Position numbers and translations under genes: made by a program. Shown piece by piece: positions 1,604 to 55,160 of a stretch of DNA of 64,000 nucleotides. Within the stretch, counting starts at the first letter, position 1; each line of letters begins with the position of its first letter. The notes below the pieces were generated by a model that saw nothing but the letters and a program-made list of their open reading frames with translations, did no database searches and had not been told where the DNA came from. The stretch spans positions 768,001-832,000 of the forward strand of contig CP000066.1 in NCBI GenBank assembly GCA_000002445.1, written 5' to 3'. This DNA comes from Trypanosoma brucei (lineage: Eukaryota).

Positions 1604-3304
1604 TCACTTCTTCTTCAATTTGCTCTCCTTTACCCAGTCCTTAATGACCTTCAGAATACTTTCAAATTGCTGTGAAACCTTCGGGTCATTGGCATGCTGC
1701 TGCACGCTCATATCTAACATTTTCATAACGTCAAATAACGAATCTGCCGGCTCCTGCCCAGCGAACACCTGCTGGAAGACACCAATGCAGGCCCCTTTCT
1801 TCCCCTCAATATACTCAGGAGCGCTGTCAAGACGCTCAAGAACATCAAACGCCTTCGCAGCATAGTAAAAGGCACACACCTTGTAGCAATCGTTAGCCAT
1901 GAGTTGAAGAATATTAAATGACTCGGCGCTGGTCTCCATCTTGAGGTAAATGTCCCAAGCCCGCTTTGCATGCTTGTTCATGATGTGTGCGCGCATAAGC
2001 CAACTCATGTAGCTGAACTCCGCTTTGACCTTCTCCGAACGCACTGCTGTGAGTGATTCCTCCGCCTCAGCAAAGCTCCCAGTTGCAGCGCATGCAATAC
2101 CATGAAGGTATAGAAAAGTGTCATCATTCAAGAAGTAGGGCTTAATGGAACGTAGGTAAATGAGCACATTGGGGAAGTCGCGCAAGATGAAGAAATACGA
2201 AGCCATGCATTGCCGACCTGGAATTGTATCGCACTCGGACTGTGCAGATCCTATGAGGTTAAAGTACTCACGCGTAGTCTTCAAATGCTCCTCTGAGTCC
2301 AACTTCTGTCCAATGAAGGCATTCACAACTGCTTTCAAAATGTACTCCGTTGAAGCCACAGGTTCAAGATCCTTAATCAGTTCATAGGCCTCCTCAATCT
2401 GCTCATGGCGCAGGTGATATATGACGAGATTCAGCCGAGCCTCTGGCACAACGTTGAGCAGTGGCGGAAGCACCTGAAGGGCGTCCTCGCCATTACGGAA
2501 GACAACCAAGTTATGCTTGACAATATCATTTTCTACATTGTAGGTGGAGCGCTGCAGGTCGATCAGCACACGCAGTTCCGCTTCAGCCGCTTTGCCATTG
2601 TACAGCCTGTAATGATTGCAGGACTTGAGATTAATGGCGGTGGCACTATTATTGTGCGATTGCAAATACACATTAAGCACTTCGAGACTAACATCATAAT
2701 AGTCCATCTTGTAGTAGCACATGGCCACGTAAACGTTCAGTGCGATGTACTCGCGGGTTTCGAGAAGTATGCGCTTATACACATCGATTGCCTCCTGGAA
2801 GTGACCGCGATAGAAATGAACAGCACCCAGCGATAGTTGATCCTCCACCGTTTCCTTCAGCTTCTGGTGATAGACAAGCAACTTGTCCTCATCATACGTC
2901 TTCTGAGCAATGTGAAACAGCAAGCGTGTCTGCAGTGAACAGTCCGGCCCCTTCAACGCACATTCCTCCGCCTCTGCGTAGGACCCGTTGACAAAATGGC
3001 AGCAACCCATGTGAATATAGTGCATTGGATCGCATCCATCAAGCGACAAGAGCTCCTTATATACATCGAGAGCTTTGGATACGTCATTCATGTGAAATGC
3101 ACTGTAGGCCAACCATGGGTTAATGGGGAGATCTCCCACTGGCTGGTTTGTTGTCTTATAAAACTCGAGAACGGTTGTGGCCTTGGAGAAGTCGCGTTGT
3201 TGCAGCGCTTCCTCAAGCTGATCAACAACAGATGTCTTTGTCTGCCCCACCTTCTGGAGAGGTGCGGCATTCTTACGCTTCACCCTCCCACTTGTAGACA
3301 GCAT
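1604..3304 (-). CDS. IFT56: Intraflagellar transport protein 56 (IFT56/TTC26/DYF-13), TPR protein
   Basis: 566 aa with a true ATG at 3304. It is collinear with IFT56/TTC26, sharing blocks such as [123 protein letters not shown] and [10 protein letters not shown]...[14 protein letters not shown]. Confidence 0.85.
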
Positions 3305-4494
3305 CAGTCCGGTTCGTATTTATTAAGTGTAAATCCTTTATCTGCTGAATATCTCTACTATATCTTCCCCTTTATCCCCTTCACGATTTTTTTTCTCTTC
3401 TTACCTCGGTTAACTTTTGCTTTTTTTTTTCTTCTTAGCTTGCTTCCGCCCTCGCTTTTCCTCCCATGATGTAACGGAGTAGAGAGGTCGCAAGCACGCA
3501 GGGCGAGTTAGAAACAACAACAAAATTAAAAGAGGAGCATCAGTCACCGTAACGCAAAGGTTGTCACGCAACACAATGAAACCTTGGCTCAAACAGTTTC
3601 CCAGCAAATTAATATATGCATATACGTACCCCTGCGTACGTGAGTGGATGAGTGAGAGTGAGTAAGTGTGCCCGCGAAGAAAAAAAGAAAGGAAAAGAAT
3701 AACACAGAGCCATGGGTGTCCCCCTGCTCTGCGCAAACGATGACACATAAGCACGGCCCTTCTTCAGTGTGAACTCTCCTTGTCACGCTTCTCCATGGCC
3801 ACATGCACACGGTCCGTTGCATAACTCCGCATACTGCCGCCACATACACACACCGTAAAAGGAATAAAAGCCAAACCGCAGTAGCGTCCAATCAGTTCGT
3901 GGTCGCTCATCCGGCGCAAATTCATGCGCCCACGGGCCAATTCATAACGGGCACGCAGACGCCGCCCCAGTCGTGCAAGAAGCCGCATTCCATAAAAATA
4001 AACGGAATGTGCAGCTTCAAAAGGGAAGGAGAAAGCCCACTACTAGTATGCTGAAGTGGTCCCGTACACTACACCGCACGGGTGATAAAGGAAGGGCTTA
4101 TGTGTGAACACGTCAGTTTGACGTGCACGTGTATGCGTGTGTGCGTATGCGTGTGCGATCGAACGGGTAGTCTGCCTATTTGGTGGTTCGTTCCTATACA
4201 GGTTCCTGTTTGAATGCGTAAATGCAAAGTGATAAATTAAGTAAAGAATCTCAACAGGGCGCAAGGCGTAACGGATCAAATAACAATATCAAAACAGCTC
4301 GAGGTGGTGATGGCTTGCGTACGCATAGATATGTACGCGGCGATATGTGAAGAAAGGGAACGAAACGAAAGAAGGGTTACACACAAGCACCCTCACATGC
4401 ATAAAGGTGGATATGCATATGCACTCACTAACTGGTCCGCACGCCAAACAAAGAGAAAAGGCGTATGTGAAGGGACCTCGACTCCACGCGTGTC

Positions 4495-5475
4495 TCAAAT
4501 AATCTTGGGCCGTACGCAGTAGTGCGGCCCTTCCTCCACGTACTCCTCAACCGTAACACACATCTTTTTGAAGGTACTCAACTGGGAAAGAATCGCCCCG
4601 CCACAAACAGCAGCGTGAGCCGGATCCTTCACGGCGATGTATTGCGGTCCTTCTCTCTGCGTAACTGTGAGAGCATGTGTCATTGCTTCCCCAAGTACTC
4701 GCCCCACTCCCGTCATGCCTGAGGCTGCTCCAACAAGTACCCAACGATCCAGCGATGGGCACTCCAACAACGATTTTTGGTACATGTGCCGCAGAGCGTT
4801 TGGAGCGCTGGCTGTCGGTGCATTGTAAAGAAGTGCCTCACCCGCTTCCCGACATACAGACGGGCTGAGCGTCATTGGAAAGGTGCTCCCATCAGGAAGT
4901 GATATCTGTCGGGACACTGCAGGAGGCTCATCGCCAACAAAACATACCGTTGACTTGAGCGCGAGAAGCACCGGCTCACTGGCCTGCGGAATATGGCGGC
5001 GCAACACCGTGTCGGTATTCTTCGCTCCAACAGAGCGCACATCCTCGCCTAAAAATGACTGCGGAAACCCGTTCACCACCGGGACCGCACGAACACCCCC
5101 ATAGCCCACATCCACACAAACACCCGTCGTTTCTCCCGAGGAGAAAAGAGCCGTCGAGACGCTGTCCACTAGCGAAACGCGCTTAGCACCAAGGCATTCA
5201 AAGCAGCACTTCAGAAGCAGCTCGCGTTTCCTCCGCGGTAACCATGTGTCCGTCAGCAAACATAGCGTGAGCGCAGACCCAGCGGGGCATGTGTCTGAGA
5301 TCAACTCGGCAACATGTCTACCGAAGAGCACAATGTCTAGCGAATCATTAGCCGCGAAAGCTTGAGTTGGAGCCTCGTTAATATTGAACTCAAAGGCAGA
5401 GTTCTTATCAGCCTTTGAAATGCAGGTATGCTTCACTGTATGTGATCCATAATCAATTACACATGTAGCGTCCAT
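4495..5475 (-). CDS. Actin-like / actin-related protein
   Basis: 326 aa with ATG at 5475. The N-terminus MDATCVIDYGSHTVK resembles the actin phosphate-1 loop. The C-terminus GGAILSQLSTFKKMCVTVEEYVEEGP resembles the actin C-terminus (LSTFQQMWISKQEYDESGP). It is divergent and shorter than actin. Confidence 0.55.
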   Translation of the reverse strand: MDATCVIDYGSHTVKHTCISKADKNSAFEFNINEAPTQAFAANDSLDIVLFGRHVAELISDTCPAGSALTLCLLTDTWLPRRKRELLLKCCFECLGAKRVSLVDSVSTALFSSGETTGVCVDVGYGGVRAVPVVNGFPQSFLGEDVRSVGAKNTDTVLRRHIPQASEPVLLALKSTVCFVGDEPPAVSRQISLPDGSTFPMTLSPSVCREAGEALLYNAPTASAPNALRHMYQKSLLECPSLDRWVLVGAASGMTGVGRVLGEAMTHALTVTQREGPQYIAVKDPAHAAVCGGAILSQLSTFKKMCVTVEEYVEEGPHYCVRPKII

Positions 5476-41740: not shown

Positions 41741-44098
41741 CTACCAACTGCCAAACGGACCAGTTGGTTGCAACTTCTGCTGTAACTCACGCAGCTTTGA
41801 CTGCTTCTCCAAGACAGCAACCTGCGCCTCCGCCACCTGCCGCCTTTTAACCTCCAGAGCTTCTTTTGCTGCAGCCCACTTCGCCTGCCGTTGGGCCGCA
41901 AGCGCCAACTTTTCCTTCACAGCCTTCACCTCCTTATGCACGGCCAGTAGTTCTAAGAGATCTTTGTGAGTTGGCTGCATAGCTAGCCACTTCCTTCGCT
42001 TCAGCAACTCCTCACCCCGCCTTCGCGCAAACTGGATCTCTTCCCGAAGCTCTTCCTTGTGTTCGCTTGCCACTATGTCCAAAACATCCCCGAACCCATT
42101 TTCATCAGATTCGACGCTAATTTCCAGCGGCTCTTCAGATTGATGTGTCTCCTCAGACACCGTCAGTCTTCGCTGCTGTTCCACCGCATCATGGAGAACC
42201 CGCCGCAGCCCCTCTGCAGCACCCCCGTACGCCAGCTGATCCGTGTTTTCGGCAACCTGAATGAAGAAGCGACGTACCTCCAGCAGCCGCTGCACGTTCT
42301 GCTGATTTCGCATCATTAGTTCATCCAGTGCCTTGGAAGATGCCTCTGAAAACTGATGTATGCATGCGCGGGAAGACTCTTCCATCTCATCTAGCAACCC
42401 TTCAACACCATCTTCACTACCTTGAAACACTCTCTCAGCGCAGAGGGCAAATGCCTCATCATCACCGTCAAGCATCACTACTTGTCTGATATGCTCCACG
42501 ATCCTCGCCCTTTGTTGCAGCACTCGGTTCAACGAAGTGAGGGATTGTAATAATAGCCCCTGTATTTCACTATAGCACCGGTAGAACAGCATTTGTAAAT
42601 TCACAACAGGAGAATCGTTATCTACCGTAGCATCGCGCAGTGTCCGACAAAGAGCCGCGGCGCTGGAGTTCTGCTTCAACAGCTTTTGCGAAAGCAAATT
42701 TAACCACTTCACCTTCTCTGAGGAGGCTCCATTCTTCATACAGTCCTCATCGGTGCATGAGCTTTCTTGAGGTTCACCAGCGTTTGACACCAACGTACTT
42801 GCGTCCAGGTTGAATAACTTTCTCAGTCGAAGCACTTCCAACCCCAATTCCTCGGCCTCAGACTCTAACTCCTCGCAGAGAGTTGTCACGGACATCGCAA
42901 AAACACTGGGGGCATTTTGATGTGACAGCGACACAACATGCGGTAATGCCTGGAGATGACTCAGCGTAGCATCCAAGTGGTGCAGTGTGGTATTCATCTG
43001 CCTGATGTCCACTTCGGCGGAGAAGACCTCCGGGGGTAATAAATTATTCGCATTAAAGGAAAGAGAAGAATTACCGCTAAAAGCCCTGCTGCGAGTGCGA
43101 AAATACCACTCCAGTGAGTCATGCACTAGTTCTTGCAAAGACGAAACGATAGCCATCACACGCGTGCTTAGCAGTTCCACACTGCCATAAACGCTCTCAC
43201 AGTTCTGTAATTGAAGAAACAACTCAGATATCAGAGCCTGTATGAGTAAGACCGAGGAACCAAGTGGTCCCTCACTGTCCAACTTGGAGGCAGCAGCTCT
43301 GCAAGCTTCAATGTACCGGCGCTCGCCCTGAAGATCAAAAGAAGGAAGCCGTGGCAATTCACCGAGTACGCCGACTATCCGGGACCGGATTTCCTCCGCA
43401 GTGTCAGTGGTTTCCATTAATTCCCTAATTCGCGGTGCTGAGCTCTGAAGGATATCTGAAGCTAACCGCTGAAGGGTATTGCATTCTTGTTCAACCATCT
43501 GCATCAGTTCCACCATGGCGTCGTCACCGTTTATTACGTCACTACCACTATAATAATTTGCGTCTGCGGAATCCTTCGCCCTGCGACACAACTCCATCTC
43601 TTGACGAACACGCAAAACAGTGGCCCTCAAAAGCTCTACGGACTCCTGCATGCTTTCATTGTCTTTTGTCTTTGCTGAAAGCTCGGCGGCGTATTCTTCG
43701 TCCCTCCTGCTTATCTCAGATTCCAGGCCAGCCGATTTGACAACTAATGCATTGTATTCATCTTCTTCCAAACCAGTGTCATACTCCGCGAGAAGCGTCG
43801 CCGTGGGAACGACTTCTACCGGCACACCACCGCCCGTGTTGGCCTCGTGCACAGCCGAGCCTGGTGTAGCTGGAGAATGGGATGAGGTGCTTGAAGGGCC
43901 GCCAAAGTGCTCATGATCATGCTTTTGCTTCTCCCACCGTTCCTGTTGGATTGCAAACAACGAAGGGTTCGCTGACGTGCCAGTTCCCACAGCATCACTA
44001 TCATCGCCCTCCCGCGCTCTCTTCCTTGTGGTGGACAACTGGGAGGCAGTTGGTTCCCCATCATCTTCAGCAAACGGATTATCTTCAAATGCTGACAT
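41741..44098 (-). CDS. Coiled-coil protein, hypothetical
   Basis: First ATG at 44098 (MSAFEDNPF; the track start 44125 is GTG). An acidic N-terminus is followed by long heptad-rich helices. The C-terminus has a Lys/Glu-rich coiled coil (KEKLALAAQRQAKWAAAKEALEVKRRQVAEAQVAVLEKQSKLRELQQKLQ). Confidence 0.6.
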   Translation of the reverse strand: MSAFEDNPFAEDDGEPTASQLSTTRKRAREGDDSDAVGTGTSANPSLFAIQQERWEKQKHDHEHFGGPSSTSSHSPATPGSAVHEANTGGGVPVEVVPTATLLAEYDTGLEEDEYNALVVKSAGLESEISRRDEEYAAELSAKTKDNESMQESVELLRATVLRVRQEMELCRRAKDSADANYYSGSDVINGDDAMVELMQMVEQECNTLQRLASDILQSSAPRIRELMETTDTAEEIRSRIVGVLGELPRLPSFDLQGERRYIEACRAAASKLDSEGPLGSSVLLIQALISELFLQLQNCESVYGSVELLSTRVMAIVSSLQELVHDSLEWYFRTRSRAFSGNSSLSFNANNLLPPEVFSAEVDIRQMNTTLHHLDATLSHLQALPHVVSLSHQNAPSVFAMSVTTLCEELESEAEELGLEVLRLRKLFNLDASTLVSNAGEPQESSCTDEDCMKNGASSEKVKWLNLLSQKLLKQNSSAAALCRTLRDATVDNDSPVVNLQMLFYRCYSEIQGLLLQSLTSLNRVLQQRARIVEHIRQVVMLDGDDEAFALCAERVFQGSEDGVEGLLDEMEESSRACIHQFSEASSKALDELMMRNQQNVQRLLEVRRFFIQVAENTDQLAYGGAAEGLRRVLHDAVEQQRRLTVSEETHQSEEPLEISVESDENGFGDVLDIVASEHKEELREEIQFARRRGEELLKRRKWLAMQPTHKDLLELLAVHKEVKAVKEKLALAAQRQAKWAAAKEALEVKRRQVAEAQVAVLEKQSKLRELQQKLQPTGPFGSW

Positions 44099-44930
44099 AT
44101 GCTTCTGAAGGCAATGCCAACACACCTACCACAAAATACGCGTCTCACTGAATGTAAGGAGAGGGGTAAAAGAGAAAACAAAGAACAAACATCCGTTTTC
44201 TTTTTTGTTTGGCAAACAGATAATGTTGGGTGAAAGCACGGGAAGCAGCCGAGCAGACTACCACAGGGGCACAAAGACAGAGGTGAAAAGGGGGTTCAAC
44301 AGGAGGATGCCACCAGCGCATACATATATATATATGTGTGTATATGAGTGGGGTACCTCCGATAAGGAAGGAAGGTAAACTTTATTTTTAAAAAAATAGG
44401 ATAAGGAACGCCAAGAAACAGTAACTTAATGGGCTGCACATATGTGTGTACGCAAACAAACACACACACACACGCAAGCACCAACATTCCTCGTCCATTT
44501 TCCACTTCTCATAGCTCTCCGTTTTTTGTTCTACCTACCAGGGGCTCGGACACAACATATTTGTTGTTATCGGTATATGTGTATTTGCTGGTGTTGCCGT
44601 GGTTTTAGTTGTGTTTTTCTTTTTCATTATAATGCTCTTTGTAATTATTCCCTTTTTATTTTGTTCTTTCATGGCTGCCCCAACGACCATTTACTTGCAG
44701 CTGCAATGATTCACATCCAGTGCGCACGTACATCCGTGCACTCCTGACAAGAAAATAAGTTGGAAGCTTTAAAGCGCCTGATCCAACACAAATTAGCTGT
44801 GGCGCACACACACGTACATTCACATTCATTAATAGCAGTATCAAGATCAACATGGAAATCATCGGCTGCAAAAACGCACACACGCACGTGTATAAATATG
44901 CATATGTTGAAGATACAAATTTATTTATGC

Positions 44931-44996: not shown

Positions 44997-45205
44997 TCCC
45001 TCCCTGACGCACAGGTATAATAATTAGCCCATCAGTCAGATGCAAGTGCAGTGTAGATATACAACACGGCATCTGTCCAATATATATATTATAAACAGAG
45101 AAAGCGAGAGCGAAAAAGAAGGGGAAGAAAGATCTCATTCTCCCCATACATATATATATATATATATATATGTACGTTCCCCGTCGACTTAACGGCTCCG
45201 CAGCT

Positions 45206-46409
45206 TTACTTCAGGTCTTGTAACAGGTGCAGCACCTGATGCACCTCTAAAAATTTGACACGGGGCCAATGCATTGCACGATCATTCCGCTGAAATGACC
45301 ACGGAATGGAGTCATTGTTACATCCCTCCTTCACAGCGTGGTGAAACTCGCCACACGCCTCAGTAAACAGAGACGGCTGTGGGGTGGGACCCCCCTCCTT
45401 TGCCTTAACACCTATGAGGAAATTGACAGACAAAAAACATGAAGAACCCCCCACGTGATTATCCTTTTTGGGCCTTATCTTACGCGGACAGGGACGGGCC
45501 TGTGCATGACGCTCTATGGAGTATATGAGGATTCGTAACCTGCTGGCCACATAGGAACTCCACACAGAAAGCGCCTGCTCAGTCTCCGCCATACTGTGGC
45601 CCGCACAACTTACACCCACAACAAGAAAGGTTGAATACTCTTCCTCTATTCTATACGGTTCCCACATCTCTTCCAACGGGAGAGTCCGCGCCTCCGTCAG
45701 AATGCATTGCACCCGTGTGATCTCGCTGTAAAGCGCCTCCAGCCCACATCGCCCAACGCTACTTGCATCGTTCACATATGGATACGCCGGACTGATCACG
45801 GGAAACAAATCGCAGCAAATTTTATCTTTCGACGGCTTCCATGAGTCTGGCAGCCCGGGAATGCGACCGCGACCCTCCAGAGTCGCAGTCAAATACACGG
45901 GTGAAATACGATCATGGCGGCTCATCCATTGCGTGTAGAAAAGAAAGAAAAATCGAAGAAGAGTACTGGGATGAGAAGATGGAAGCACCTGACAAACCCT
46001 AGCCACCATGATGGCAAGCACCGCGCCGTTCGGATACGTGTAGACATTGCCGTAAACCATCCGACGCATCGCCCATAGCTTTACTGTCTTCAGAACGGCA
46101 GTGAAGACATCGTACGGCACCGGAAGTCGCCGCTTAATCTCAAACGTGAAACGGATTCCGTTCGCACTGGGTCGGGTTTCTCGAGCCACCTTCAGTAGAA
46201 ACGAATCATCCAGCATCTGCTCCTCCGTAGGCGGCTGTGGCAGTCCAACAGAAACAAACACAACATCGACAGCTGTGCCTCTGTACTCAAATTTAACAAC
46301 GGGAACTCTGGCAGCGACTACAGACACGGGACCGACAGAGTTATATAACAACCTCGGAAACTCATCGAAAAAGATATCAGTCGTTAAAACAGATGGACAA
46401 ATCAGCGCG
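45206..46409 (-). CDS. PAP1: Poly(A) polymerase, exon 2 (rest of catalytic domain, central domain and start of RNA-binding domain)
   Basis: RVPVVKFEYRGTAVDVVFVSVG matches [20 protein letters not shown] (third catalytic Asp). LKTVKLWAMRRMVYGNVYTYPNGAVLAIMVARVCQVLP...LLRFFFLFYTQWMS matches the PAP central-domain motifs [35 protein letters not shown]...LV.KFF.VFS.W. The spliced protein is about 487 aa. Confidence 0.8.
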
Positions 46410-47059
46410 CTTCACAAATTCAACGTAATTCGGCGTTGTGATTGTTGTTGGTTGAAATGGTATGGTTGCGGGGTTTTGACAAAAAAAAAATGGAAAATCA
46501 GCATCCGTGTTTGCCGTCAGTACCATGTGCGGGTCACGAGTGCCACGACGACGAACAGACTCACATCAACAAAATATACACATATACACAAATGTATACG
46601 TGTACATATATGATTATACATGTATATGCATATTTAGATAATCACATCATTAACGAAGGAAGAAGCAATGGTCAATGTTGGAAATAAACACAAATGTATA
46701 GACAGTGAAAGCGAAACAGCACGCAGATCAGCCACGAAGGTTCGACAACCACGGCAAGATGAACGCGTCCAGACGTCGACAAGGCGATGGCGGCACGTGA
46801 AACGAGGAACAGGGAACGATGTGAGGAGGGGAAGAAAAGAAGAGGACGGGAGAAGAGCAGGGAAAAGATTACACGTAAAGCAGAAGCACGTTCCTTTAAG
46901 GGTTCACATGATCCAACATAAAATGAAAAAGGACCCAGAACACCAAAAAGGAAAAGAATAGTAAAGAAAGAGAGGAAGAAGAGGGGAGATGCATATACAA
47001 AGAGAGGAGAAAAGAAGAAGGGAGTAGAAAGGAGGGATTAAGGAAAGAACTCACCATAC
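46410..47059 (-). other. PAP1: cis-spliced intron of the poly(A) polymerase gene (GT..AG, about 650 nt)
   Basis: 5' splice site GTATGG at 47059..47054 (minus strand). 3' splice site ..AATTTGTGAAG|C with AG at 46411..46410. Splicing joins GAT GT|C GCG CTG to give SDLD-V-ALICPSVLTTDIFFDEF, which is collinear with bovine PAP [20 protein letters not shown]. The intron contains in-frame stops in the PAP frame and a U10 tract about 75 nt upstream of the acceptor. Confidence 0.75.
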
Positions 47060-47319
47060 ACATCGAGATCACTCTCTGCAACTGAAGCGGAAAGACCGCA
47101 TGAACCAAATGGGTAGGCACGTGCCCATTGTTCCTGAGTGTTTTGGGAGTGCCGCTGCACAATGCGAAGCGCCATCGACTCCACTAGCGTTAAAACCGGA
47201 TTGGGACTAATGGAAGGGCATTCGGCCAACACGCCGTAAAGCATCTCAGACTCGTCGTAGTCATGGTCTTGTGGACGGGGAACCTCTAGTGGTTTCGTTG
47301 GGCCATACATCCACTCCAT
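47060..47319 (-). CDS. PAP1: Poly(A) polymerase, exon 1 (nucleotidyltransferase domain through the DxD motif)
   Basis: ATG at 47319 is the first AUG after a pyrimidine tract and AG. It encodes MEWMYGPTKP...YPFGSCGLSASVAESDLD and ends in phase 2 (..GAT GT) directly before GTATGG. This is the pol-beta-like GS...DxD catalytic motif of PAP. Confidence 0.75.
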
Positions 47320-47420
47320 CAAATAAAGTGTTTCTTCCTTCAACGTAACACATAGAAGTAAAAGAAGCCACACAAGCGGGGATATTGAAAAAATGGAAAG
47401 GTGAGAAAAAAAATAGAGCA
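47320..47420 (-). promoter_or_regulatory. Polypyrimidine tract and candidate SL trans-splice acceptor AGs upstream of PAP exon 1
   Basis: Minus strand reads ctattttttttctcacctttccattttttcaatatccccgcttgtgtggcttcttttacttctatgtgttacgttgAAGgAAGaaacactttatttgATG. Confidence 0.5.
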
Positions 47421-47460
47421 CATAAAAAGGTGCATCAACGCGTAGGAAAGTGGAGGAGGC

Positions 47461-47464
<4 letters not shown>

Positions 47465-47497
<33 letters not shown>
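47465..47497. repeat. (TA)n microsatellite, about 16 units, upstream of PAP
   Basis: Direct read. Confidence 0.95.
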
Positions 47498-47896: not shown

Positions 47897-49861
47897 CTAG
47901 ACGGCGGCACGAGGTAGATAATCCGAGCTTGCTGACAGCTTCATTACTTCCTCATGGAGAATGCTGCTCGAGTGGGGAATAACAAAGCGGTCCCCAGCTG
48001 AAGCCACAAGCGCCTGCCCGTCGGTCAGTTGGTCAACGGATGTTACCTCACAACCTGTAGCGTCGTATATTGTGTCCACTTTCTTCCCAAGAGCGTGCCA
48101 CTCCAACTCCCTCTCGACTGTGTTCATGACGGCACGCATCGTTTTGTGCGCAGGCCTTAGTGTTACGGTACGAAAGGGGAATCGGTCGTTATTCCTGTCG
48201 CCATACTCTCCGTTCTCAAACACACGCACGGATATCGGTCTCAGGATTCCCTTTCCCGGGGCTGTATGGGGAGCACAATGCACTCTCTCCTGCTGTTTCG
48301 GCTGCTGTTTCGGTTGTTGCTTTGGTTGGCCACCTGCTGCACCAGAACCTCCAATCGAATGTGACTTCCTCACGGGCGTGCCCGTGGCAGGCCGGCCAGC
48401 CGGAATCCTCGAAGCCTCCGCACTTGCTGCTTCCACCTTTACACCCTTTGAGGGCGCCGGAGGGCAAGCATACACATGACCAGTCGTTGCCACAAGAGAT
48501 ATGCCATCCGTGATAAACTCCGCACGTGCGATTTCAACGCCTTCAGTGGTGAACAAACGCTTCACCCGCCTTCCAGAGGACTCCCAACCAAGCGCTTGCG
48601 TGAGTATATCTAATACACACGGCAGTGTCTTTGCTTGTCCGCTCAGAACAACTTGCTTAAACTGCAATGCAATTTGCCCAGGAAGCACTCCTGCCACCTT
48701 GCACCGCCTCGGCTTCGCAGTCACATCCTTGCTATCAAGTCGTGGAATCCCCGTGGCTCCATCATTCAGGGAGTATTTAGGCTGGTAATTTGTTGGACAG
48801 CCGGTGGGTAGGGAACGATGGTTTCCACCCCTGGGAACACATGCTTCCGGCGGTTTCACCTGAGGAGACGCAATTTCAACGGCTGGTGACTCGCGAGGAC
48901 CGCGGGACCCTGGAGGGCGGCTGCTCGCCAATGCAACACCACCGCTGCCCCTCTCCCTCGGAGTATTTAACGGTTTCGCAGCTCCGTCCTTCTTCTGGAC
49001 ACGAGACTTCGTGGTTAACGTAGGAGAAACTCCCTCAGTCCTCAGAGTGTCAGATCCCGATCTCCTAGTTTCCGTACAACTAGACAGCGAAGGGTTGCTT
49101 TCAGCAGCAGCACGAGCGGAGGAAGAAACCAGCATCGGCTTGCCCCCACAGCGAATAATTGTGGGGGGAGCTGGTGTTGCCGCATTCCACAGTTCGTCCG
49201 TCGATGGAAGCCTTGTCGAGTCAAATCTCTTATTTGCTTTTAACTCCGAAGACCTCCTAAGCTCCTTAGCATTCTGCACACAAGCTGCACGCCTTAGTTC
49301 CCCAATCATTTCCCATGTAGGCTGCGGGGGGGCCTCAGGCTTCGACTGAGGGGTAACACCAGGAGCGGTTTCACCTCCAGTGGAAGTCTCACAACGCGGT
49401 TTCTGTTGCCCAGAGCTATTCTTCGCAGAACCTCTCCCTCTATCCTCGATGTCAAGGCACTCAGTGAGAAATACTTTGGAGGCACCGTCAGCGAATCTCA
49501 TCTCTACTGCTGACTTTCCTTGAAATGAGGGTATGACACGGGTGATCTTCCCTCGTTCGCCCAGGTACACTTGTTTCACAGGGTCAGGAATAAAAATGCC
49601 TTTTTCCTCACGGAGTAAAGTGGACATATCGTCGATCGTCTGAACATAGTCCCCAACACGCAGAATCATCTCTCCCACTTTGAGGGAAGTTGGCTCCTCC
49701 TCAGCTGCCTTTCTCAGGGCTGCCTGGGCAACCTCCGCAGCGGTCATCTCTAAATTCTTGCCAGCCAGCTCATCAAACGCCCTCTGTTCCCTCTCCCTCT
49801 CCTGACGGAGGATCTCAAGCTTTAACTGTATTTCCTCCCGCTTCGATGCCGCTGTATGCAT
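47897..49861 (-). CDS. Doublecortin (DCX)-like domain protein, hypothetical
   Basis: 654 aa with a true ATG at 49861. An N-terminal coiled coil is followed by two ubiquitin-like DCX-type segments (VKRLFTTEGVEIARAEFITDGISLVATTG and RFPFRTVTLRP...GKKVDTIYDATGCEVTSVDQLTDGQALVASAGDRF). The middle is a Ser/Pro/Arg-rich linker with a (QPKQ)3 repeat. Confidence 0.45.
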   Translation of the reverse strand: MHTAASKREEIQLKLEILRQEREREQRAFDELAGKNLEMTAAEVAQAALRKAAEEEPTSLKVGEMILRVGDYVQTIDDMSTLLREEKGIFIPDPVKQVYLGERGKITRVIPSFQGKSAVEMRFADGASKVFLTECLDIEDRGRGSAKNSSGQQKPRCETSTGGETAPGVTPQSKPEAPPQPTWEMIGELRRAACVQNAKELRRSSELKANKRFDSTRLPSTDELWNAATPAPPTIIRCGGKPMLVSSSARAAAESNPSLSSCTETRRSGSDTLRTEGVSPTLTTKSRVQKKDGAAKPLNTPRERGSGGVALASSRPPGSRGPRESPAVEIASPQVKPPEACVPRGGNHRSLPTGCPTNYQPKYSLNDGATGIPRLDSKDVTAKPRRCKVAGVLPGQIALQFKQVVLSGQAKTLPCVLDILTQALGWESSGRRVKRLFTTEGVEIARAEFITDGISLVATTGHVYACPPAPSKGVKVEAASAEASRIPAGRPATGTPVRKSHSIGGSGAAGGQPKQQPKQQPKQQERVHCAPHTAPGKGILRPISVRVFENGEYGDRNNDRFPFRTVTLRPAHKTMRAVMNTVERELEWHALGKKVDTIYDATGCEVTSVDQLTDGQALVASAGDRFVIPHSSSILHEEVMKLSASSDYLPRAAV

Positions 49862-50609: not shown

Positions 50610-53588
50610 TTAAGCATTCCCAGAAGAGGCACCAAATGAGAAGGGATTCCGTGGAGCATTGTTCTTTTCACCACTTGCTGAAGCATTCCCAGCAGAGGCA
50701 CCAAATGAGAAGGGATTCCGTGGAGCATTGTCCTTTTCACCACTTGCTGAAGCATTCCCAGCAGAGGCACCAAATGAGAAGGGATTCCGTGGAGCATTGT
50801 CCTTTTCACCACTTGCTGAAGCATTCCCAGCAGAGGCACCAAATGAGAAGGGATTCCGTGGAGCATTGTCCTTTTCACCACTTGCTGAAGCATTCCCAGC
50901 AGAGGCACCAAATGAGAAGGGATTCCGTGGAGCATTGTCCTTTTCACCACTTGCTGAAGCATTCCCAGCAGAGGCACCAAATGAGAAAGGATTACTCGGG
51001 GTGCGAGTGACACCTGAAGTTGAACCTGCAGTTGGAGATGGTGACCCGTCTTCGTCATCACCTCCAGCGTTGTCAGCGAAACCCTCATCATCAAACGGGA
51101 CAGCAGATGGGCCACTTTTAAAGAAACCACCAGATGAAGCTGTCTTTGAAGTCACAGCCCCAATACCCGAGCTCGCTGCAGCACTTCCAGCAGAGGCACC
51201 AAATGAGAAGGGATTCCGTGGAGCATTGTCCTTTTCACCACTTGCTGAAGCATTCCCAGCAGAGGCACCAAATGAGAAGGGATTCCGTGGAGCATTGTCC
51301 TTTTCACCACTTGCTGAAGCATTCCCAGCAGAGGCACCAAATGAGAAGGGATTCCGTGGAGCATTGTTCTTTTCACCACTTGCTGAAGCATTCCCAGCAG
51401 AGGCACCAAATGAGAAGGGATTCCGTGGAGCATTGTTCTTTTCACCACTTGCTGAAGCATTCCCAGCAGAGGCACCAAATGAGAAGGGATTCCGTGGAGC
51501 ATTGTTCTTTTCACCACTTGCTGAAGCATTCCCAGCAGAGGCACCAAATGAGAAAGGATTACTCGGGGTGCGAGTGACACCTGAAGTTGAACCTGCAGTT
51601 GGAGATGGTGACCCGTCTTCGTCATCACCTCCAGCGTTGTCAGCGAAACCCTCATCATCAAACGGGACAGCAGATGGGCCACTTTTAAAGAAACCACCAG
51701 ATGAAGCTGTCTTTGAAGTCACAGCCCCAATACCCGAGCTCGCTGCAGCACTTCCAGCAGAGGCACCAAATGAGAAGGGATTCCGTGGAGCATTGTCCTT
51801 TTCACCACTTGCTGAAGCATTCCCAGCAGAGGCACCAAATGAGAAAGGATTACTCGGGGTGCGAGTGACACCTGAAGTTGAACCTGCAGTTGGAGATGGT
51901 GACCCGTCTTCGTCATCACCTCCAGCGTTGTCAGCGAAACCCTCATCATCAAACGGGACAGCAGATGGGCCACTTTTAAAGAAACCACCAGATGAAGCTG
52001 TCTTTGAAGTCACAGCCCCAATACCCGAGCTCGCTGCAGCACTTCCAGCAGAGGCACCAAATGAGAAGGGATTCCGTGGAGCATTGTCCTTTTCACCACT
52101 TGCTGAAGCATTCCCAGCAGAGGCACCAAATGAGAAGGGATTCCGTGGAGCATTGTCCTTTTCACCACTTGCTGAAGCATTCCCAGCAGAGGCACCTGAT
52201 GAGAAAGGATTACTCGGGGTGCGAGTGACACCTGAAGTTGAACCTGCAGTTGGAGATGGTGACCCGTCTTCGTCATCACCTCCAGCGTTGTCAGCGAAAC
52301 CCTCATCATCAAACGGGACAGCAGATGGGCCACTTTTAAAGAAACCACCAGATGAAGCTGTCTTTGAAGTCACAGCCCCAATGCCCGAGCTCGCTGCAGC
52401 ACTTCCAGCAGAGGCACCAAATGAGAAGGGATTCCGTGGAGCATTGTCCTTTTCACCACTTGCTGAAGCATTCCCAGCAGAGGCACCAAATGAGAAGGGA
52501 TTCCGTGGAGCATTGTCCTTTTCACCACTTGCTGAAGCATTCCCAGCAGAGGCACCAAATGAGAAGGGATTCCGTGGAGCATTGTCCTTTTCACCACTTG
52601 CTGCAGCACTTCCAGCAGAGGCACCAAATGAGAAAGGATTCCGTGGAGCATTGTTCTTTTCACCACTTGCTGAAGCATTCCCAGCAGAGGCACCTGATGA
52701 GAAGGGATTACTCGGGGTGCGAGTGGTACCTGAAGTTGGGCCTGCGACGTGTGCAGCCTTTTCCCCATCTCTATTCGTGCCACGGTCAGTTCCACCACCA
52801 AGCCCTTCTGCCTCAAATGTCACACGCCTCAATAGGTCTTGCCGCATAGTTGAAGACGCATCTGCATCGCCTTGGTCGCGCCTCCGCTTCTCTGGAGTGG
52901 GGCGGGGAGCCAATATAGTCGACCTGTACGAAGGCCGTGACGGCCGTATCGTGTAACGCGGCTCGTTGAACCTTGCCAATAACAGAGGATCCACGGTGGG
53001 TAGATTATTTGATGGAGCGGCGTAGTAGAAGTTGTATTGATAATGGTGCGTGTAAGGCCCAGTCTCCGGTTCTATCATCTGGGACCCACGCTGATGGGCA
53101 TTACCAGCAAATTCACCGGGCCTCACAACAACGGGATTGCACTCCGCTCGCGCAACTGCCGCTACTCCTGAGCGATGCGACTGCATATGCATGGTGTTCG
53201 CTGCCGTGGTTACATTATTAGTTATGGGTGGTACCGGCGAGTTTGTCTGGGATGGTGGCGCATGTGAGGAAGCTACTGAGTCTGGCGTTGGACCACACCG
53301 GCTGGCGTCAGCCCCGCCCACGGTGGTCACTCCCAAAACGGCTCGCATGACACCTTTAGCCAAACCGCCGAGACGCGTCATACACCACGCCAAACTGCCG
53401 CTTACACGAGCGATATTCGACATGTTTTTCTGGTGATCAACCTCCTCACCGTTACGCAAGACGACCGTACCTGTTGATACGCCATGGCGAGACATCGCTG
53501 AGTGGTCTCCAAACCGGTGAGACGAGGTGGGCGTAAAGGAATCCTTCTTGGCACAAAGGCGTACGGTTATACGCGGCCGCTCACGCAT
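50610..53588 (-). CDS. FSFG-repeat nucleoporin-like protein (FG-Nup, about 98 kDa)
   Basis: First ATG at 53588 (the track start 53618 is TTG). A non-repetitive N-terminal domain of about 300 aa precedes roughly 25 copies of a 23-aa unit NPFSFGASAGNASASGEKDNAPR (69 bp). These are organised in blocks separated by a 75-aa spacer unit (..SSGIGAVTSKTASSGGFFKSGPSAVPFDDEGFADNAGGDDEDGSPSPTAGSTSGVTRTPS..). The ORF terminates with TAA inside the last repeat unit. Confidence 0.7.
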   Translation of the reverse strand: MRERPRITVRLCAKKDSFTPTSSHRFGDHSAMSRHGVSTGTVVLRNGEEVDHQKNMSNIARVSGSLAWCMTRLGGLAKGVMRAVLGVTTVGGADASRCGPTPDSVASSHAPPSQTNSPVPPITNNVTTAANTMHMQSHRSGVAAVARAECNPVVVRPGEFAGNAHQRGSQMIEPETGPYTHHYQYNFYYAAPSNNLPTVDPLLLARFNEPRYTIRPSRPSYRSTILAPRPTPEKRRRDQGDADASSTMRQDLLRRVTFEAEGLGGGTDRGTNRDGEKAAHVAGPTSGTTRTPSNPFSSGASAGNASASGEKNNAPRNPFSFGASAGSAAASGEKDNAPRNPFSFGASAGNASASGEKDNAPRNPFSFGASAGNASASGEKDNAPRNPFSFGASAGSAAASSGIGAVTSKTASSGGFFKSGPSAVPFDDEGFADNAGGDDEDGSPSPTAGSTSGVTRTPSNPFSSGASAGNASASGEKDNAPRNPFSFGASAGNASASGEKDNAPRNPFSFGASAGSAAASSGIGAVTSKTASSGGFFKSGPSAVPFDDEGFADNAGGDDEDGSPSPTAGSTSGVTRTPSNPFSFGASAGNASASGEKDNAPRNPFSFGASAGSAAASSGIGAVTSKTASSGGFFKSGPSAVPFDDEGFADNAGGDDEDGSPSPTAGSTSGVTRTPSNPFSFGASAGNASASGEKNNAPRNPFSFGASAGNASASGEKNNAPRNPFSFGASAGNASASGEKNNAPRNPFSFGASAGNASASGEKDNAPRNPFSFGASAGNASASGEKDNAPRNPFSFGASAGSAAASSGIGAVTSKTASSGGFFKSGPSAVPFDDEGFADNAGGDDEDGSPSPTAGSTSGVTRTPSNPFSFGASAGNASASGEKDNAPRNPFSFGASAGNASASGEKDNAPRNPFSFGASAGNASASGEKDNAPRNPFSFGASAGNASASGEKDNAPRNPFSFGASAGNASASGEKNNAPRNPFSFGASSGNA
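50612..52745. repeat. Hierarchical coding tandem repeat (69-bp units in higher-order blocks of about 290-560 bp) within the FG-Nup gene
   Basis: The near-identical 69-mer agcattcccagcagaggcaccaaatgagaagggattccgtggagcattgtccttttcaccacttgctga recurs more than 20 times. The spacer unit starting aatgagaaaggattactcggggtgcgagtgacacc recurs at about 50977, 51541, 51835, 52195 and 52689. Unit length is a multiple of 3, so several frames stay open on both strands. Confidence 0.95.
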
Positions 53589-55160
53589 ATGCCCTGAGTA
53601 CACTCTATGCAAAAGCAACCTGAAAAAGAAAAAATGAGAAAATTCCTCCTTATTCAGAAGAGGGATAGAATCCTATTTTGAGCGTAAATTTATCCTTCCC
53701 AAAAGGAGGTAGAAAAGAGCAGCGGGGATGTACAAAGAGGAGACAGCCAAAGGTCTTCACAAGAAAAAGAACATGTGGTGGTGATGGCACCGGTTTTTGG
53801 CAGACACACACACACACACGTACACAGGCACAGACATAAATAACCAAATGAATGCAAACGGTGCGCACAATAGCACCAACACATAGCAATACCCACCCCC
53901 ACTCGAGTTTGTAAGCCGCCCATTTTACCTTCCCCCCTTTTCCGCATTTCCTTCATACAAACTCGCTCACGCGCACACACGTAAATATTTATTTATATTT
54001 CTTTTCAAAATACATATACATATACATATATATATATATATATATATGTATTCGCAAGCACATTTGCAAATACATTTCCACAGAGCGCTCAGCACGAACT
54101 GCAGCCCCCTCTCATTCCTGTCCTTCTACACATATTCCAGCGTCAGTGCATGACACCGGGCTCCCTTTTATCTCGTGGCACTTCAAAAATATCAACTCGC
54201 CTCGATGCAAACAATGCCGCCTTGGCGACGTGTAAAATGATGTGCGCTCCCTCGGAGGCGCCTGCGGAGAGAAGTAGAAAAAAAAAAAGGAGGAAGAGAA
54301 AAATGCGCACAACAGCGATCATGCTGAGCGACATATTATTATGTGGAGCACCCATAACGAAAAAAAAAAAACTGAAAAACAAGGAAGTCAAATGGAAAAA
54401 GGAGGGAAATTTTTTAATAAAAAAAGAAAAAGACTACAAATTCTAAAACGAAGATGGGAATGATTTTTCGTTAAACAACAAAAAGAAGAAAACAAAACGT
54501 TGTACAAACAAGAGACTACACGAATAGTAAAGGAAATACGGAGCGATACACCTGACCGCATATATTACAAATATAAATACGTGTTTATGTTTGGTATCCG
54601 TGCTTTTGCATGTGTGCATCTGCAAGTGCTTCTGTACGAGAAGGAAAAAAAAGGGGGGGAAGGCACAAATTTAAAAAAAAAAAAGAGGAAAGAGGATGAG
54701 GAGAGGAACGAAAGTAGCAAAGAGAACCGCTGGGGAGGAAAAGCGAAATGAACGAAAATAAATAATGTTTTTCCATCTTCTTCTTCTTGCTCGATTTTAA
54801 ATGTGTACGACGTGGACAGTCACATCGATAGGTGCGCACGTACTTTTTACAAGTGTGCTCGCAGCAACAACAAAAGCTTCTTTTCTCCCTTCCTCCTCCT
54901 TCCTCCCTCTTCCCTCCTCTCAACCAACACCTCCCTTCCCCGAACCTACACAAAAAGTAACCAAGAAAAAACAAAACATTGCTTTTCAACAGAAAAGAAC
55001 GGAAGGCAAAAATAGGAAGAAGAAAAAAATGGAAGTCAAATAAAAAAGTATGTGGATTGTCGGTGAGGAAAAGATATGGGGAAAAAAAAGAAAGAAATAA
55101 AAAAATGAGACGGAGTTAACAATTTAAAAAAAAGGGGGGGATCACGGAGGGGTGGAAATA

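What the first reader, a model, noticed from the sequence alone, without database searches (positions are those of the whole stretch)
45206..47319. Poly(A) polymerase gene interrupted by a roughly 650-nt cis-spliced GT..AG intron
The PAP nucleotidyltransferase motif (GS...SDLD) and the central domain sit in two minus-strand ORFs about 0.65 kb apart. A phase-2 GT donor (GAT GT|GTATGG at 47059) and the only compatible AG acceptor (46410/46411) restore PAP collinearity: DLD-V-ALICPSVLTTDIFFDEF against bovine [18 protein letters not shown]. Cis-splicing is extremely rare in trypanosomes, with only PAP and one DEAD-box helicase gene described in T. brucei. My recollection is that the T. brucei intron is 653 nt and the T. 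cruzi one about 300 nt. This is therefore most likely the already-described PAP intron, not a new one. It also points to the T. brucei lineage. Ab initio gene callers will miss it and give two truncated ORFs, which is what the supplied ORF track shows.
Basis: partly seen in the sequence, partly recalled or inferred. Interest (0 to 1): 0.8.

Follow-up and report, generated by a model that had tools for sequence, protein, structure and literature searches.

The report
Known intron in trypanosome PAP1 gene

Summary
On the minus strand, exon 1 (47319..47060, 260 nt, phase 2), a 650-nt GT..AG intron (47059..46410) and exon 2 (46409..45206) join into a 487-aa protein. That protein is 100% identical over its full length to the deposited T. 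brucei brucei TREU927 poly(A) polymerase (XP_843909.1). Only the spliced product carries a complete PAP nucleotidyltransferase domain. It also aligns without a gap across the junction to solved PAP structures.

The intron sits at the same codon and phase in T. b. gambiense, T. cruzi, T. vivax, T. grayi and T. theileri, with lengths from 268 to 651 nt. Its first 10 nt (GTATGGTGAG) are invariant and pair with the 5' end of U1 snRNA.

Published work quoted here describes experimental cis-splicing of this gene (Mair et al. 2000), U1C/U1-70K crosslinks at its 5' splice site, and long reads of the spliced mRNA.

- The intron is 650 nt in this strain, not 653. Its length varies between isolates.
- A third cis-spliced gene, RBP20, was described in 2024.
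- Other in-frame AG acceptors exist, but they delete conserved residues.

Verdict: real, correctly interpreted, already known, low interest.

The parts
47060..47319 (-). PAP1 exon 1 coding part: ATG at 47319 and 260 nt ending in phase 2 (GAT GT|). It encodes M1-D86 and the first two bases of V87. It includes the G72-S73 motif and catalytic D84 (47070..47068) and D86 (47064..47062).
   Evidence: Pfam PAP_NTPase profile 1-86; identical to residues 1-86 of XP_843909.1
46410..47059 (-). Cis-spliced GT..AG spliceosomal intron of 650 nt, with no long ORF and no Rfam family.
   Evidence: same position and phase in five other Trypanosoma taxa; 10 of the 13 differences from T. b. gambiense fall in it
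47049..47059 (-). Extended 5' splice site GTATGGTGAGT. The first 10 nt are invariant in T. brucei, T. cruzi, T. vivax, T. grayi and T. theileri. All 11 are shared with T. cruzi.
   Evidence: predicted pairing of positions -1..+12 with the U1 5' end AACUCACCUGCA at -14.3 kcal/mol, equal-best (tied with an overlapping window over the same motif) among 22-nt windows at the 174 GU sites of the pre-mRNA; mutation data quoted in PMC6467909 and PMC11613528
46810..47048 (-). Pyrimidine-rich (60-88% C+T per 50 nt) 5' part of the intron.
   Evidence: composition bins; a pyrimidine-rich start is also seen in the other species; a U1C crosslink cluster at +15..+19 is reported in PMC4041458
46481..46497 (-). 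3' polypyrimidine tract TTTTCCA(T)10. The T run is 10 here and 11 in two other T. brucei assemblies.
46410..46411 (-). 3' splice site AG. It is the first AG after the T-rich tract; the nearest AG upstream is 150 nt away. The literature also reports it as a minor SL trans-splice acceptor.
   Evidence: PMC4041458 and PMC11613528
45206..46409 (-). PAP1 exon 2 coding part. It holds the third base of V87 through K487 plus the stop TAA (45208..45206). It includes the third catalytic Asp, D135 (46267..46265), the rest of the NTPase domain, the PAP central domain and a weak RNA-binding-domain match.
47334..47440 (-). Upstream pyrimidine-rich tract followed by AGs at 47339/47338 and 47335/47334. This is the inferred spliced-leader acceptor region for exon 1 and is not verified here.
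   Evidence: sequence; inferred from the general trans-splicing rule of a polypyrimidine tract followed by the first AG (PMC6597758)

Best explanation
The region is the PAP1 gene (Tb927.3.3160) of Trypanosoma brucei, TREU927-type allele. It is a canonical nuclear poly(A) polymerase gene split by one U1-dependent GT..AG spliceosomal intron.

The gene lies in a long minus-strand polycistronic array. The inferred processing runs as follows. The pre-mRNA receives a spliced leader upstream of ATG 47319. The U1 snRNP binds the extended 5' splice site GUAUGGUGAGU at 47059. The spliceosome then joins 47060 to 46409, using the first AG after a T-rich tract.

Splicing brings together catalytic Asp84 and Asp86 (exon 1) with Asp135 (exon 2). 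Only the spliced mRNA can therefore encode an active enzyme.

Shown here: the gene structure, the identity of the product, the domain restoration, the cross-species conservation of intron position, phase and 5' splice site, and the predicted complementarity to U1.

Taken from the literature: that splicing really occurs, that it depends on U1, that a minor SL-exon2 isoform competes for the same acceptor, and that PAP1 polyadenylates snoRNAs and lncRNAs rather than bulk mRNA.
For: Gene structure and product:
- The spliced product is 487 aa. It is 100% identical over 100% of its length to the TREU927 poly(A) polymerase, accessions XP_843909.1 and AAZ10350.1.
- A separate GenBank T. brucei entry, AAF36551.1, is also 487 aa with the same SDLDVALICPS junction. 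It differs only at S79A and P400L.
- PAP_NTPase matches profile positions 1-193 of 194 in one stretch (E 1e-27), and PAP_central matches at E 1e-35.
- The alignment to S. pombe Pla1 (7q74) has no gap across the junction, E 4e-33.
- The separate ORFs carry only the domain halves 1-86 and 127-193.

Public gene models:
- The T. b. gambiense DAL972 gene spans 2115 nt for a 487-aa product, which implies a 651-nt intron.
- The T. cruzi CL Brener gene spans 1761 nt for 485 aa, which implies a 303-nt intron.

Conservation:
- Exon 1 is 260 nt in phase 2, followed by GTATGGTGAG, in T. cruzi, T. vivax, T. grayi and T. theileri. Their intron lengths are 300, 363, 268 and 380 nt.
- Against gambiense the intron has diverged about seven times faster than the exons: 10 differences in 650 nt versus 3 in 1464 nt.

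U1 pairing: predicted duplex energy is -14.3 kcal/mol, the lowest (tied with an overlapping window over the same motif) among windows at the 174 GU sites of the pre-mRNA.

Literature:
- PMC4041458: PAP Tb927.3.3160 is cis-spliced, U1C and U1-70K crosslink at positions -1..+3, and U1C knockdown reduces cis-splicing.
- PMC6467909: quotes Mair et al. 2000.
- PMC11613528: phase 2, a 10-nt motif, and long reads of SL-exon1-exon2.
Against: The intron is 650 nt, not the published 653 nt. The original genomic entry could not be retrieved to locate the 3-nt difference.

A canonical-looking GGTGAGT lies 5 nt downstream of the real donor, at 47054, and scores almost as well for U1 pairing (-14.1 kcal/mol).

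The literature describes cis-splicing of this intron as inefficient, with many intronic reads (PMC4041458).
Confidence: 0.97

Rival explanations
1. The two ORFs are separate transcription products. Exon 2 alone would be trans-spliced to the spliced leader and would yield an N-terminally truncated protein, so the gap would be an intergenic spacer rather than an intron.
For: The intron looks like a trypanosome intergenic region: it is pyrimidine-rich and has a T tract followed by the first AG. Published work reports a minor SL-exon2 isoform, in 1 of 2 bloodstream and 2 of 6 procyclic long reads (PMC11613528). That isoform rises after U1C knockdown (PMC4041458).
Against: The catalytic residues are split, with D84 and D86 in exon 1 and D135 in exon 2, and the NTPase domain is cut in half. 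An exon-2 product would therefore lack two of the three carboxylates. Exon 1 has no in-frame stop before the donor and is conserved in five other taxa with the same phase. The invariant 10-nt U1-complementary motif would have no role in a spacer. The deposited proteins are the joined 487-aa form.
Confidence: 0.02
2. The intron is real, but the true 5' splice site is a neighbouring GT. One candidate is the canonical-looking G|GTGAGT at 47054. The other is GA|GTTCTT at 47050, which with the same acceptor gives a 490-aa protein reading DLDVYGDALICPS.
For: One search shows that 47050 with 46410 stays in frame (490 aa). One search shows that the window at the 47054 GU gives nearly the same U1 duplex energy (-14.1 kcal/mol). 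In the standard U1 register, GGUGAGU would be the cleavage site.
Against: Donor 47054 is phase 1. It is in frame only with acceptors at 46318 or beyond, which delete conserved residues. The 47050 product adds three residues where the solved PAPs align without a gap. All deposited T. brucei proteins are 487 aa and read DLDVALICPS. The orthologues read DLDIVLFCP or DIDIVVFCP only if GTATGG is the donor. U1C and U1-70K crosslinks peak at -1..+3 of the annotated site (PMC4041458).
Confidence: 0.01
3. The gene is a disrupted pseudogene or an assembly artefact, and the 650 nt are an insertion.
For: Mechanical ORF callers give two fragments. The L. donovani orthologue was at first annotated as a pseudogene (PMC6467909).
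Against: The same interruption at the same codon and phase is present in independent assemblies of six Trypanosoma taxa, with different lengths. The exons show far fewer differences than the intron. The boundaries are exactly GT..AG and restore the frame.
Confidence: 0.005

Closest known systems
T. brucei PAP1 (Tb927.3.3160) cis-spliced intron, Mair et al. 2000 (RNA 6:163), as quoted in PMC6467909, PMC4041458 and PMC11613528
   Same: The gene and the product are the same: 100% identity to the TREU927 protein, and the same junction as AAF36551.1. The GT..AG boundaries, phase 2 and the conserved 11-nt 5' splice site shared with T. cruzi also match.
   Different: The intron is 650 nt here against 653 nt reported. 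Other T. brucei assemblies have 651 nt through a T10/T11 run or other small indels, so this is most likely strain polymorphism. The protein differs from AAF36551.1 at S79A and P400L.
PAP1 introns of other kinetoplastids: T. cruzi 300-303 nt, T. vivax 363, T. grayi 268, T. theileri 380, L. donovani 841 nt (PMC6467909); the median is about 440 nt (PMC11613528)
   Same: Identical position, phase and first 10 nt. The 3' end is poorly conserved apart from the AG.
   Different: Length and internal sequence are unrelated. The T. brucei intron is on the long side for Trypanosoma.
The other kinetoplastid cis-introns, in DBP2B (Tb927.8.1510) and RBP20 (Tb927.8.6440)
   Same: They are U1-dependent GT..AG introns that begin with GTATG, and their genes encode RNA-metabolism proteins (PMC11613528).
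   Different: The genes and chromosomes differ, the phases are 1 and 0, the introns are much longer (medians about 3350 and 1300 nt), and the conserved 5' motif is shorter.
Canonical eukaryotic poly(A) polymerases with solved structures (S. pombe Pla1 7q74, yeast Pap1 1fa0/2hhp, bovine PAPalpha 1f5a/1q78, human PAPgamma 4lt6)
   Same: An NTPase domain with G-S and D-x-D plus a third Asp, and a central domain. E-values are 4e-33 to 8e-31 over residues 58-407.
   Different: The N- and C-termini are shorter. The C-terminal RNA-binding domain matches only weakly (17.7 bits, below the Pfam cut-off of 24). According to the literature it acts on snoRNAs and lncRNAs, while the intronless PAP2 (Tb927.7.3780) handles mRNA.

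Membership tests
Kinetoplastid PAP1 cis-spliceosomal intron | GT..AG boundaries that restore one open frame | tested here: met
   GT at 47059, AG at 46411/46410, 650 nt, spliced CDS of 1464 nt giving 487 aa.
Kinetoplastid PAP1 cis-spliceosomal intron | Phase 2, immediately after the D-x-D catalytic motif, at the same position as in the orthologues | tested here: met
   Exon 1 is 260 nt in the window and in T. cruzi, T. vivax, T. grayi and T. theileri and in gambiense and CL Brener. PMC11613528 states phase 2 for PAP1.
Kinetoplastid PAP1 cis-spliceosomal intron | Extended conserved 5' splice site (10-11 nt, GTATGGTGAGT) complementary to the U1 snRNA 5' end | tested here: met
   It is invariant for 10 nt in 5 species. 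The predicted duplex with AACUCACCUGCA has 12 pairs and one bulged U, at -14.3 kcal/mol, the lowest value in the pre-mRNA (tied with an overlapping window over the same motif). The U1 sequence was taken from PMC11613528, not from this window.
Kinetoplastid PAP1 cis-spliceosomal intron | Polypyrimidine tract followed by the first AG as the 3' splice site | tested here: met
   TTTTCCA(T)10 lies at 46497..46481. There is no AG between it and 46411/46410.
Kinetoplastid PAP1 cis-spliceosomal intron | Removal from the transcript in vivo (spliced cDNA or junction reads) | not testable with these tools
   No RNA data were available. Splicing is reported in Mair et al. 2000 (quoted in PMC6467909), PMC4041458 and PMC11613528. 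The deposited proteins correspond to the spliced form.
Kinetoplastid PAP1 cis-spliceosomal intron | Branch point upstream of the polypyrimidine tract | not testable with these tools
   Kinetoplastids have no branch-point consensus (PMC11613528; PMC6597758).
Canonical eukaryotic poly(A) polymerase (Pol-beta-type nucleotidyltransferase) | PAP nucleotidyltransferase domain with G-S, D-x-D and a third catalytic Asp | tested here: met
   PF20750 at 97.6 bits, profile 1-193 of 194. G72-S73, D84, D86 and D135 align with GS, DID and ISIDLIF of S. pombe Pla1.
Canonical eukaryotic poly(A) polymerase (Pol-beta-type nucleotidyltransferase) | PAP central domain | tested here: met
   PF04928 at 123.2 bits, E 9.6e-36.
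Canonical eukaryotic poly(A) polymerase (Pol-beta-type nucleotidyltransferase) | C-terminal PAP RNA-binding domain | tested here: inconclusive
   PF04926 scores 17.7 bits, below the cut-off of 24, and only profile positions 5-45 of 181 match. The PDB alignments do extend to residues 386-407.
Canonical eukaryotic poly(A) polymerase (Pol-beta-type nucleotidyltransferase) | Polyadenylation activity and substrates | not testable with these tools
   From the literature only: PAP1 acts on snoRNAs and lncRNAs, and PAP2 is the mRNA enzyme (PMC11613528; PMC6597758).
Self-splicing group I/II intron or intron-hosted ncRNA (considered and rejected) | Match to a curated RNA family or a conserved structured core | tested here: not met
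   Rfam gave no match at gathering thresholds in the whole window. Only sub-threshold miRNA-model hits (19-29 bits against cut-offs of 75-100) appeared, on a TA/TG-rich low-complexity stretch. That hairpin has z = -1.6.

The most novel reading that the evidence does not exclude
The intron may be kept as a regulatory device rather than being a relic. Cis-splicing (U1 at 47059) and spliced-leader trans-splicing compete for the same acceptor at 46410, and this could set the ratio of active PAP1 mRNA to a catalytically dead SL-exon2 mRNA. The roughly 240-nt pyrimidine-rich 5' part and the variable T run could tune that choice, and through it snoRNA and lncRNA maturation. The literature already raises this idea as speculation (PMC11613528, PMC4041458). 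Nothing in my evidence tests it.
Probability: 0.15. Interest if true: 0.45.

Novelty: already known. Interest (0 to 1): 0.1.

Why it matters
It matters mainly as a quality check. The scan correctly recovered one of only three cis-spliced genes known in T. brucei from raw sequence, with exact splice coordinates, and it assigns the window to T. brucei (its PAP1 product is identical to the TREU927 protein on the 1.65-Mb contig).

There are two practical by-products. The deposited orthologues in T. vivax, T. grayi, T. theileri and T. congolense are truncated within exon 2. The T. cruzi Dm28c model reads through the intron. All of these could be corrected using the conserved GTATGGTGAG donor.

Nothing here changes current understanding of trypanosome splicing.

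Tried and rejected
- **Donor/acceptor enumeration.** I listed all GT/AG pairs that keep the frame open. There are 511, so frame alone does not select the junction. Homology, conservation and the deposited protein do.
- **Alternative donors 47054 and 47050.** Rejected; see the rival explanations.
- **Look-ups by exact protein.** The TREU927 protein and the upstream 654-aa neighbour were 'not on record', so the TREU927 genomic record itself could not be aligned. I used gambiense DAL972, two Logan contigs and four other species instead.
- **Mair et al. 2000.** The paper could not be read by PubMed id or by PMC1369902. Its content is cited second-hand from PMC6467909, PMC4041458 and PMC11613528.
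- **Supplementary tables of PMC11613528.** These hold per-species intron lengths but are not held as text.
- **First paper search.** It failed on term syntax, and the next one returned nothing because 'poly(A)' cannot be matched.
- **Rfam search for an intron-hosted RNA.** Nothing credible.
- **Whole-intron fold.** It gives z = -4.7, but with only 20 shuffles, and the signal comes from TA/TG low-complexity palindromes. The main hairpin alone gives z = -1.6. The other species' introns are too short to contain the element. I do not treat it as evidence of a functional structure.
- **Plus-strand ORFs inside the locus.** ORFs 46101..46613 and 46668..46961 have no Pfam match and are taken as spurious.
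Full report
**What is in the sequence**

All coordinates below are on the minus strand. A 127-aa ORF (47421..47038) contains ATG 47319 and reads MEWMYGPTKPLEV...FGSCGLSASVAESDLDV before running into pyrimidine-rich sequence. A second ORF (46351..45206, 381 aa from a TTG) carries the rest of a poly(A) polymerase.

Joining 47060 to 46409 removes 650 nt that begin GTATGGTGAGT and end TTGTGAAG. Exon 1 is 260 nt, so the intron is in phase 2 and splits the codon of V87. The joined CDS is 1464 nt and encodes 487 aa.

Frame alone does not fix the junction. 511 GT/AG pairs keep the frame open, and for donor 47059 the acceptors 46353, 46308 and 46281 are also in frame. So 'the only compatible AG' is too strong. 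Acceptor 46410 is the only one that retains the conserved segment. It is also the first AG after the T-rich tract at 46497..46481, with the nearest upstream AG 150 nt away.

**Is it a PAP, and does splicing restore it?**

The spliced protein matches Pfam PAP_NTPase over profile positions 1-193 of 194 in one stretch (97.6 bits). It matches PAP_central at 123.2 bits. It matches the PAP RNA-binding domain only weakly, at 17.7 bits against a cut-off of 24.

The two ORFs taken separately hold profile positions 1-86 and 127-193 of the NTPase domain.

Against solved structures the best hits are S. pombe Pla1, human PAP gamma, yeast Pap1 and bovine PAP alpha, with E-values from 4e-33 to 8e-31. The alignment to Pla1 runs across the junction without a gap: sdldvalicpsvlttdiff against SDIDTLVVVPKHVSRDNFF.

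Catalytic D84 and D86 lie in exon 1. The third Asp, D135 (aligned with ISIDLIF), lies in exon 2. Neither ORF alone can encode an active enzyme; this last step is an inference from the family's known catalytic triad.

**Identity**

A search of the large protein collection returns a 487-aa protein with 100% identity and 100% coverage. It is named poly(A) polymerase [Trypanosoma brucei brucei TREU927] and sits on a 1,653,225-bp contig. Its accessions are XP_843909.1 and AAZ10350.1.

Two other entries share the cluster, and both are 487 aa with the same junction:
- T. b. gambiense DAL972, which differs at S79A, A327V and P400L.
- GenBank AAF36551.1, 'polyA polymerase [Trypanosoma brucei]', which differs at S79A and P400L.

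The window therefore carries the TREU927-type allele of Tb927.3.3160.

The gambiense gene model spans 2115 nt for 487 aa. It is therefore annotated with a 651-nt intron, and I confirmed its GT..AG boundaries.

**Conservation**

The deposited orthologues were used to fetch their loci, and tblastn placed residues 1-87 and about 88-end in two blocks in each. In every case exon 1 is 260 nt, the phase is 2, and the intron starts GTATGGTGAG.

| Taxon / source | Intron length (nt) |
|---|---|
| Window (T. b. brucei TREU927-type allele) | 650 |
| T. b. gambiense DAL972 | 651 |
| Two Logan read assemblies (sample organism not named) | 651 |
| T. cruzi Dm28c | 300 |
| T. cruzi CL Brener | 303 |
| T. vivax | 363 |
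| T. grayi | 268 |
| T. theileri | 380 |

The 5' ends align as shown. The 11-mer GTATGGTGAGT is shared with T. cruzi. This agrees with the statement that eleven nucleotides are conserved between the two species and that point mutations there abolish splicing (PMC11613528; PMC6467909).

Against gambiense, 10 of the 13 differences in the gene fall in the 650-nt intron and 3 fall in the 1464-nt exons. That is the pattern expected of non-coding sequence between constrained exons.

**Length discrepancy**

Mair et al. 2000 reported 653 nt for T. brucei and 302 nt for T. cruzi, as quoted in PMC6467909. I measure 650 nt here.

The two Logan read assemblies have 651 nt through a T11 run in place of T10, plus two substitutions. 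Gambiense reaches 651 nt through different indels. T. cruzi shows 300 and 303 nt in two strains.

The intron length is therefore polymorphic. AAF36551.1 differs from TREU927 at two residues, so it came from another strain. I infer that the 3-nt difference is strain variation. I could not retrieve the original genomic entry to show this directly.

**How it works**

The window is one long minus-strand gene array. Of the 20 ORFs of at least 250 aa, 19 are on the minus strand. This is the usual trypanosomatid polycistronic layout (PMC6597758).

Upstream of ATG 47319 there is a pyrimidine-rich tract followed by AGs at 47339/38 and 47335/34. This is the likely spliced-leader acceptor, which I infer and did not test.

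The kinetoplastid U1 5' consensus is AACUCACCUGCA (PMC11613528). It can pair with positions -1 to +12 of the 5' splice site: 8 contiguous pairs on GGUGAGUU, then 4 more after a single bulged U at +4. The predicted energy is -14.3 kcal/mol. That is the lowest value, tied with an overlapping window over the same motif, among windows at the 174 GU sites of the pre-mRNA. The 10-mer and the 11-mer at the donor each occur once in the 64-kb window.

Published iCLIP places U1C and U1-70K crosslinks at -1..+3 of this site, with a U1C cluster at +15..+19. U1C knockdown lowers cis-splicing and raises trans-splicing of the spliced leader onto exon 2 at the same acceptor (PMC4041458). Long reads show both SL-exon1-exon2 and a minor SL-exon2 isoform (PMC11613528).

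PAP1 is reported to polyadenylate snoRNAs and lncRNAs. The intronless PAP2 is the mRNA enzyme (PMC11613528; PMC6597758).

**Rivals**

Separate genes, a neighbouring donor (47054 or 47050), and a pseudogene or assembly artefact were each considered and rejected. The grounds are the split catalytic triad, the frame, the ungapped homology, the 487-aa deposited proteins, the conserved phase across six taxa, and the reported crosslink position.

No self-splicing intron or hosted ncRNA is indicated. Rfam gives nothing at gathering thresholds. Only sub-threshold miRNA-model hits appear, on a TA/TG-rich stretch, and that hairpin is not unusually stable (z = -1.6). The whole-intron z of -4.7 rests on only 20 shuffles and on those low-complexity palindromes.

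**Comparison with the known, and verdict**

This is the T. brucei PAP1 intron itself, first described in 2000 and annotated in the reference genome. It meets every defining feature that could be tested here. In-vivo splicing and the branch point could not be tested with these tools.

A third cis-spliced gene, RBP20 (Tb927.8.6440), was reported in 2024 (PMC11613528).

Novelty: already known. Interest: low. The finding is a correct call, and a useful control showing that the scan can detect a rare trypanosome intron from sequence alone.

Noticed in passing
L002/L003 (T. vivax) 2038-3861; L004 (T. grayi) 2133-3864; L005 (T. theileri) 2021-3858; protein P0004 (T. congolense); L001 (T. cruzi Dm28c) 3001-4623: The deposited PAP1 orthologues are mis-modelled. 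In T. vivax (286 aa), T. grayi (287 aa) and T. theileri (285 aa) the model starts at an internal Met of exon 2. The T. congolense entry (356 aa) lacks exon 1. The T. cruzi Dm28c model (540 aa) translates straight through the intron (SDLDMYGESFSNPSL...). Using the conserved GTATGGTGAG donor I obtain full-length products of 485-487 aa for T. vivax, T. grayi and T. theileri.
   Followed up: partly
window 46481-46490 (T10 run) and the intron generally; L006, L007, L008: The PAP1 intron length varies within T. brucei. It is 650 nt here, 651 nt in two Logan assemblies (T11 run plus 2 SNPs), and 651 nt in gambiense DAL972 through different indels. The 2000 paper gives 653 nt. Ten of the 13 gene differences from gambiense lie in the intron, and all three exon differences change an amino acid (S79A, A327V, P400L).
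   Followed up: yes
window 46555-46650 (minus strand, inside the intron): A TA/TG-rich low-complexity stretch forms two adjacent hairpins. It attracts sub-threshold Rfam miRNA-model hits (19-29 bits against cut-offs of 75-100). The fold is not significantly stable (z = -1.6). The other species' introns, at 268-380 nt, are too short to contain such an element.
   Followed up: partly
window 47464-47497 and 45149-45173: (TA)n microsatellites flank the PAP1 gene on both sides, in the upstream and downstream intergenic regions.
   Followed up: no
window 47897-49861 (minus strand) and 41741-44125 (minus strand): The upstream neighbour is a 654-aa protein with a C-terminal doublecortin (DCX) domain (Pfam E 1.4e-10). 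The downstream neighbour is a 794-aa ORF with no Pfam match. The order DCX protein, PAP1, then a protein of about 750-790 aa is kept in T. cruzi, T. vivax, T. grayi, T. theileri and T. b. gambiense.
   Followed up: partly
window 50659-52956 (+) versus 50610-53618 (-): The only long plus-strand ORF in the window (765 aa) lies entirely antisense to a 1002-aa minus-strand ORF. All 19 other ORFs of at least 250 aa are on the minus strand, so the window is a single directional gene array. The antisense ORF was not examined.
   Followed up: no
window 47049-47059: The part of the 5' splice site best matched to U1 (GGUGAGUU, 8 contiguous pairs) lies at +5..+12. It is not in the standard register across the cleavage site. 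A canonical-looking G|GUGAGU sits 5 nt downstream of the real junction and is not used, to judge from the frame and the deposited proteins.
   Followed up: partly
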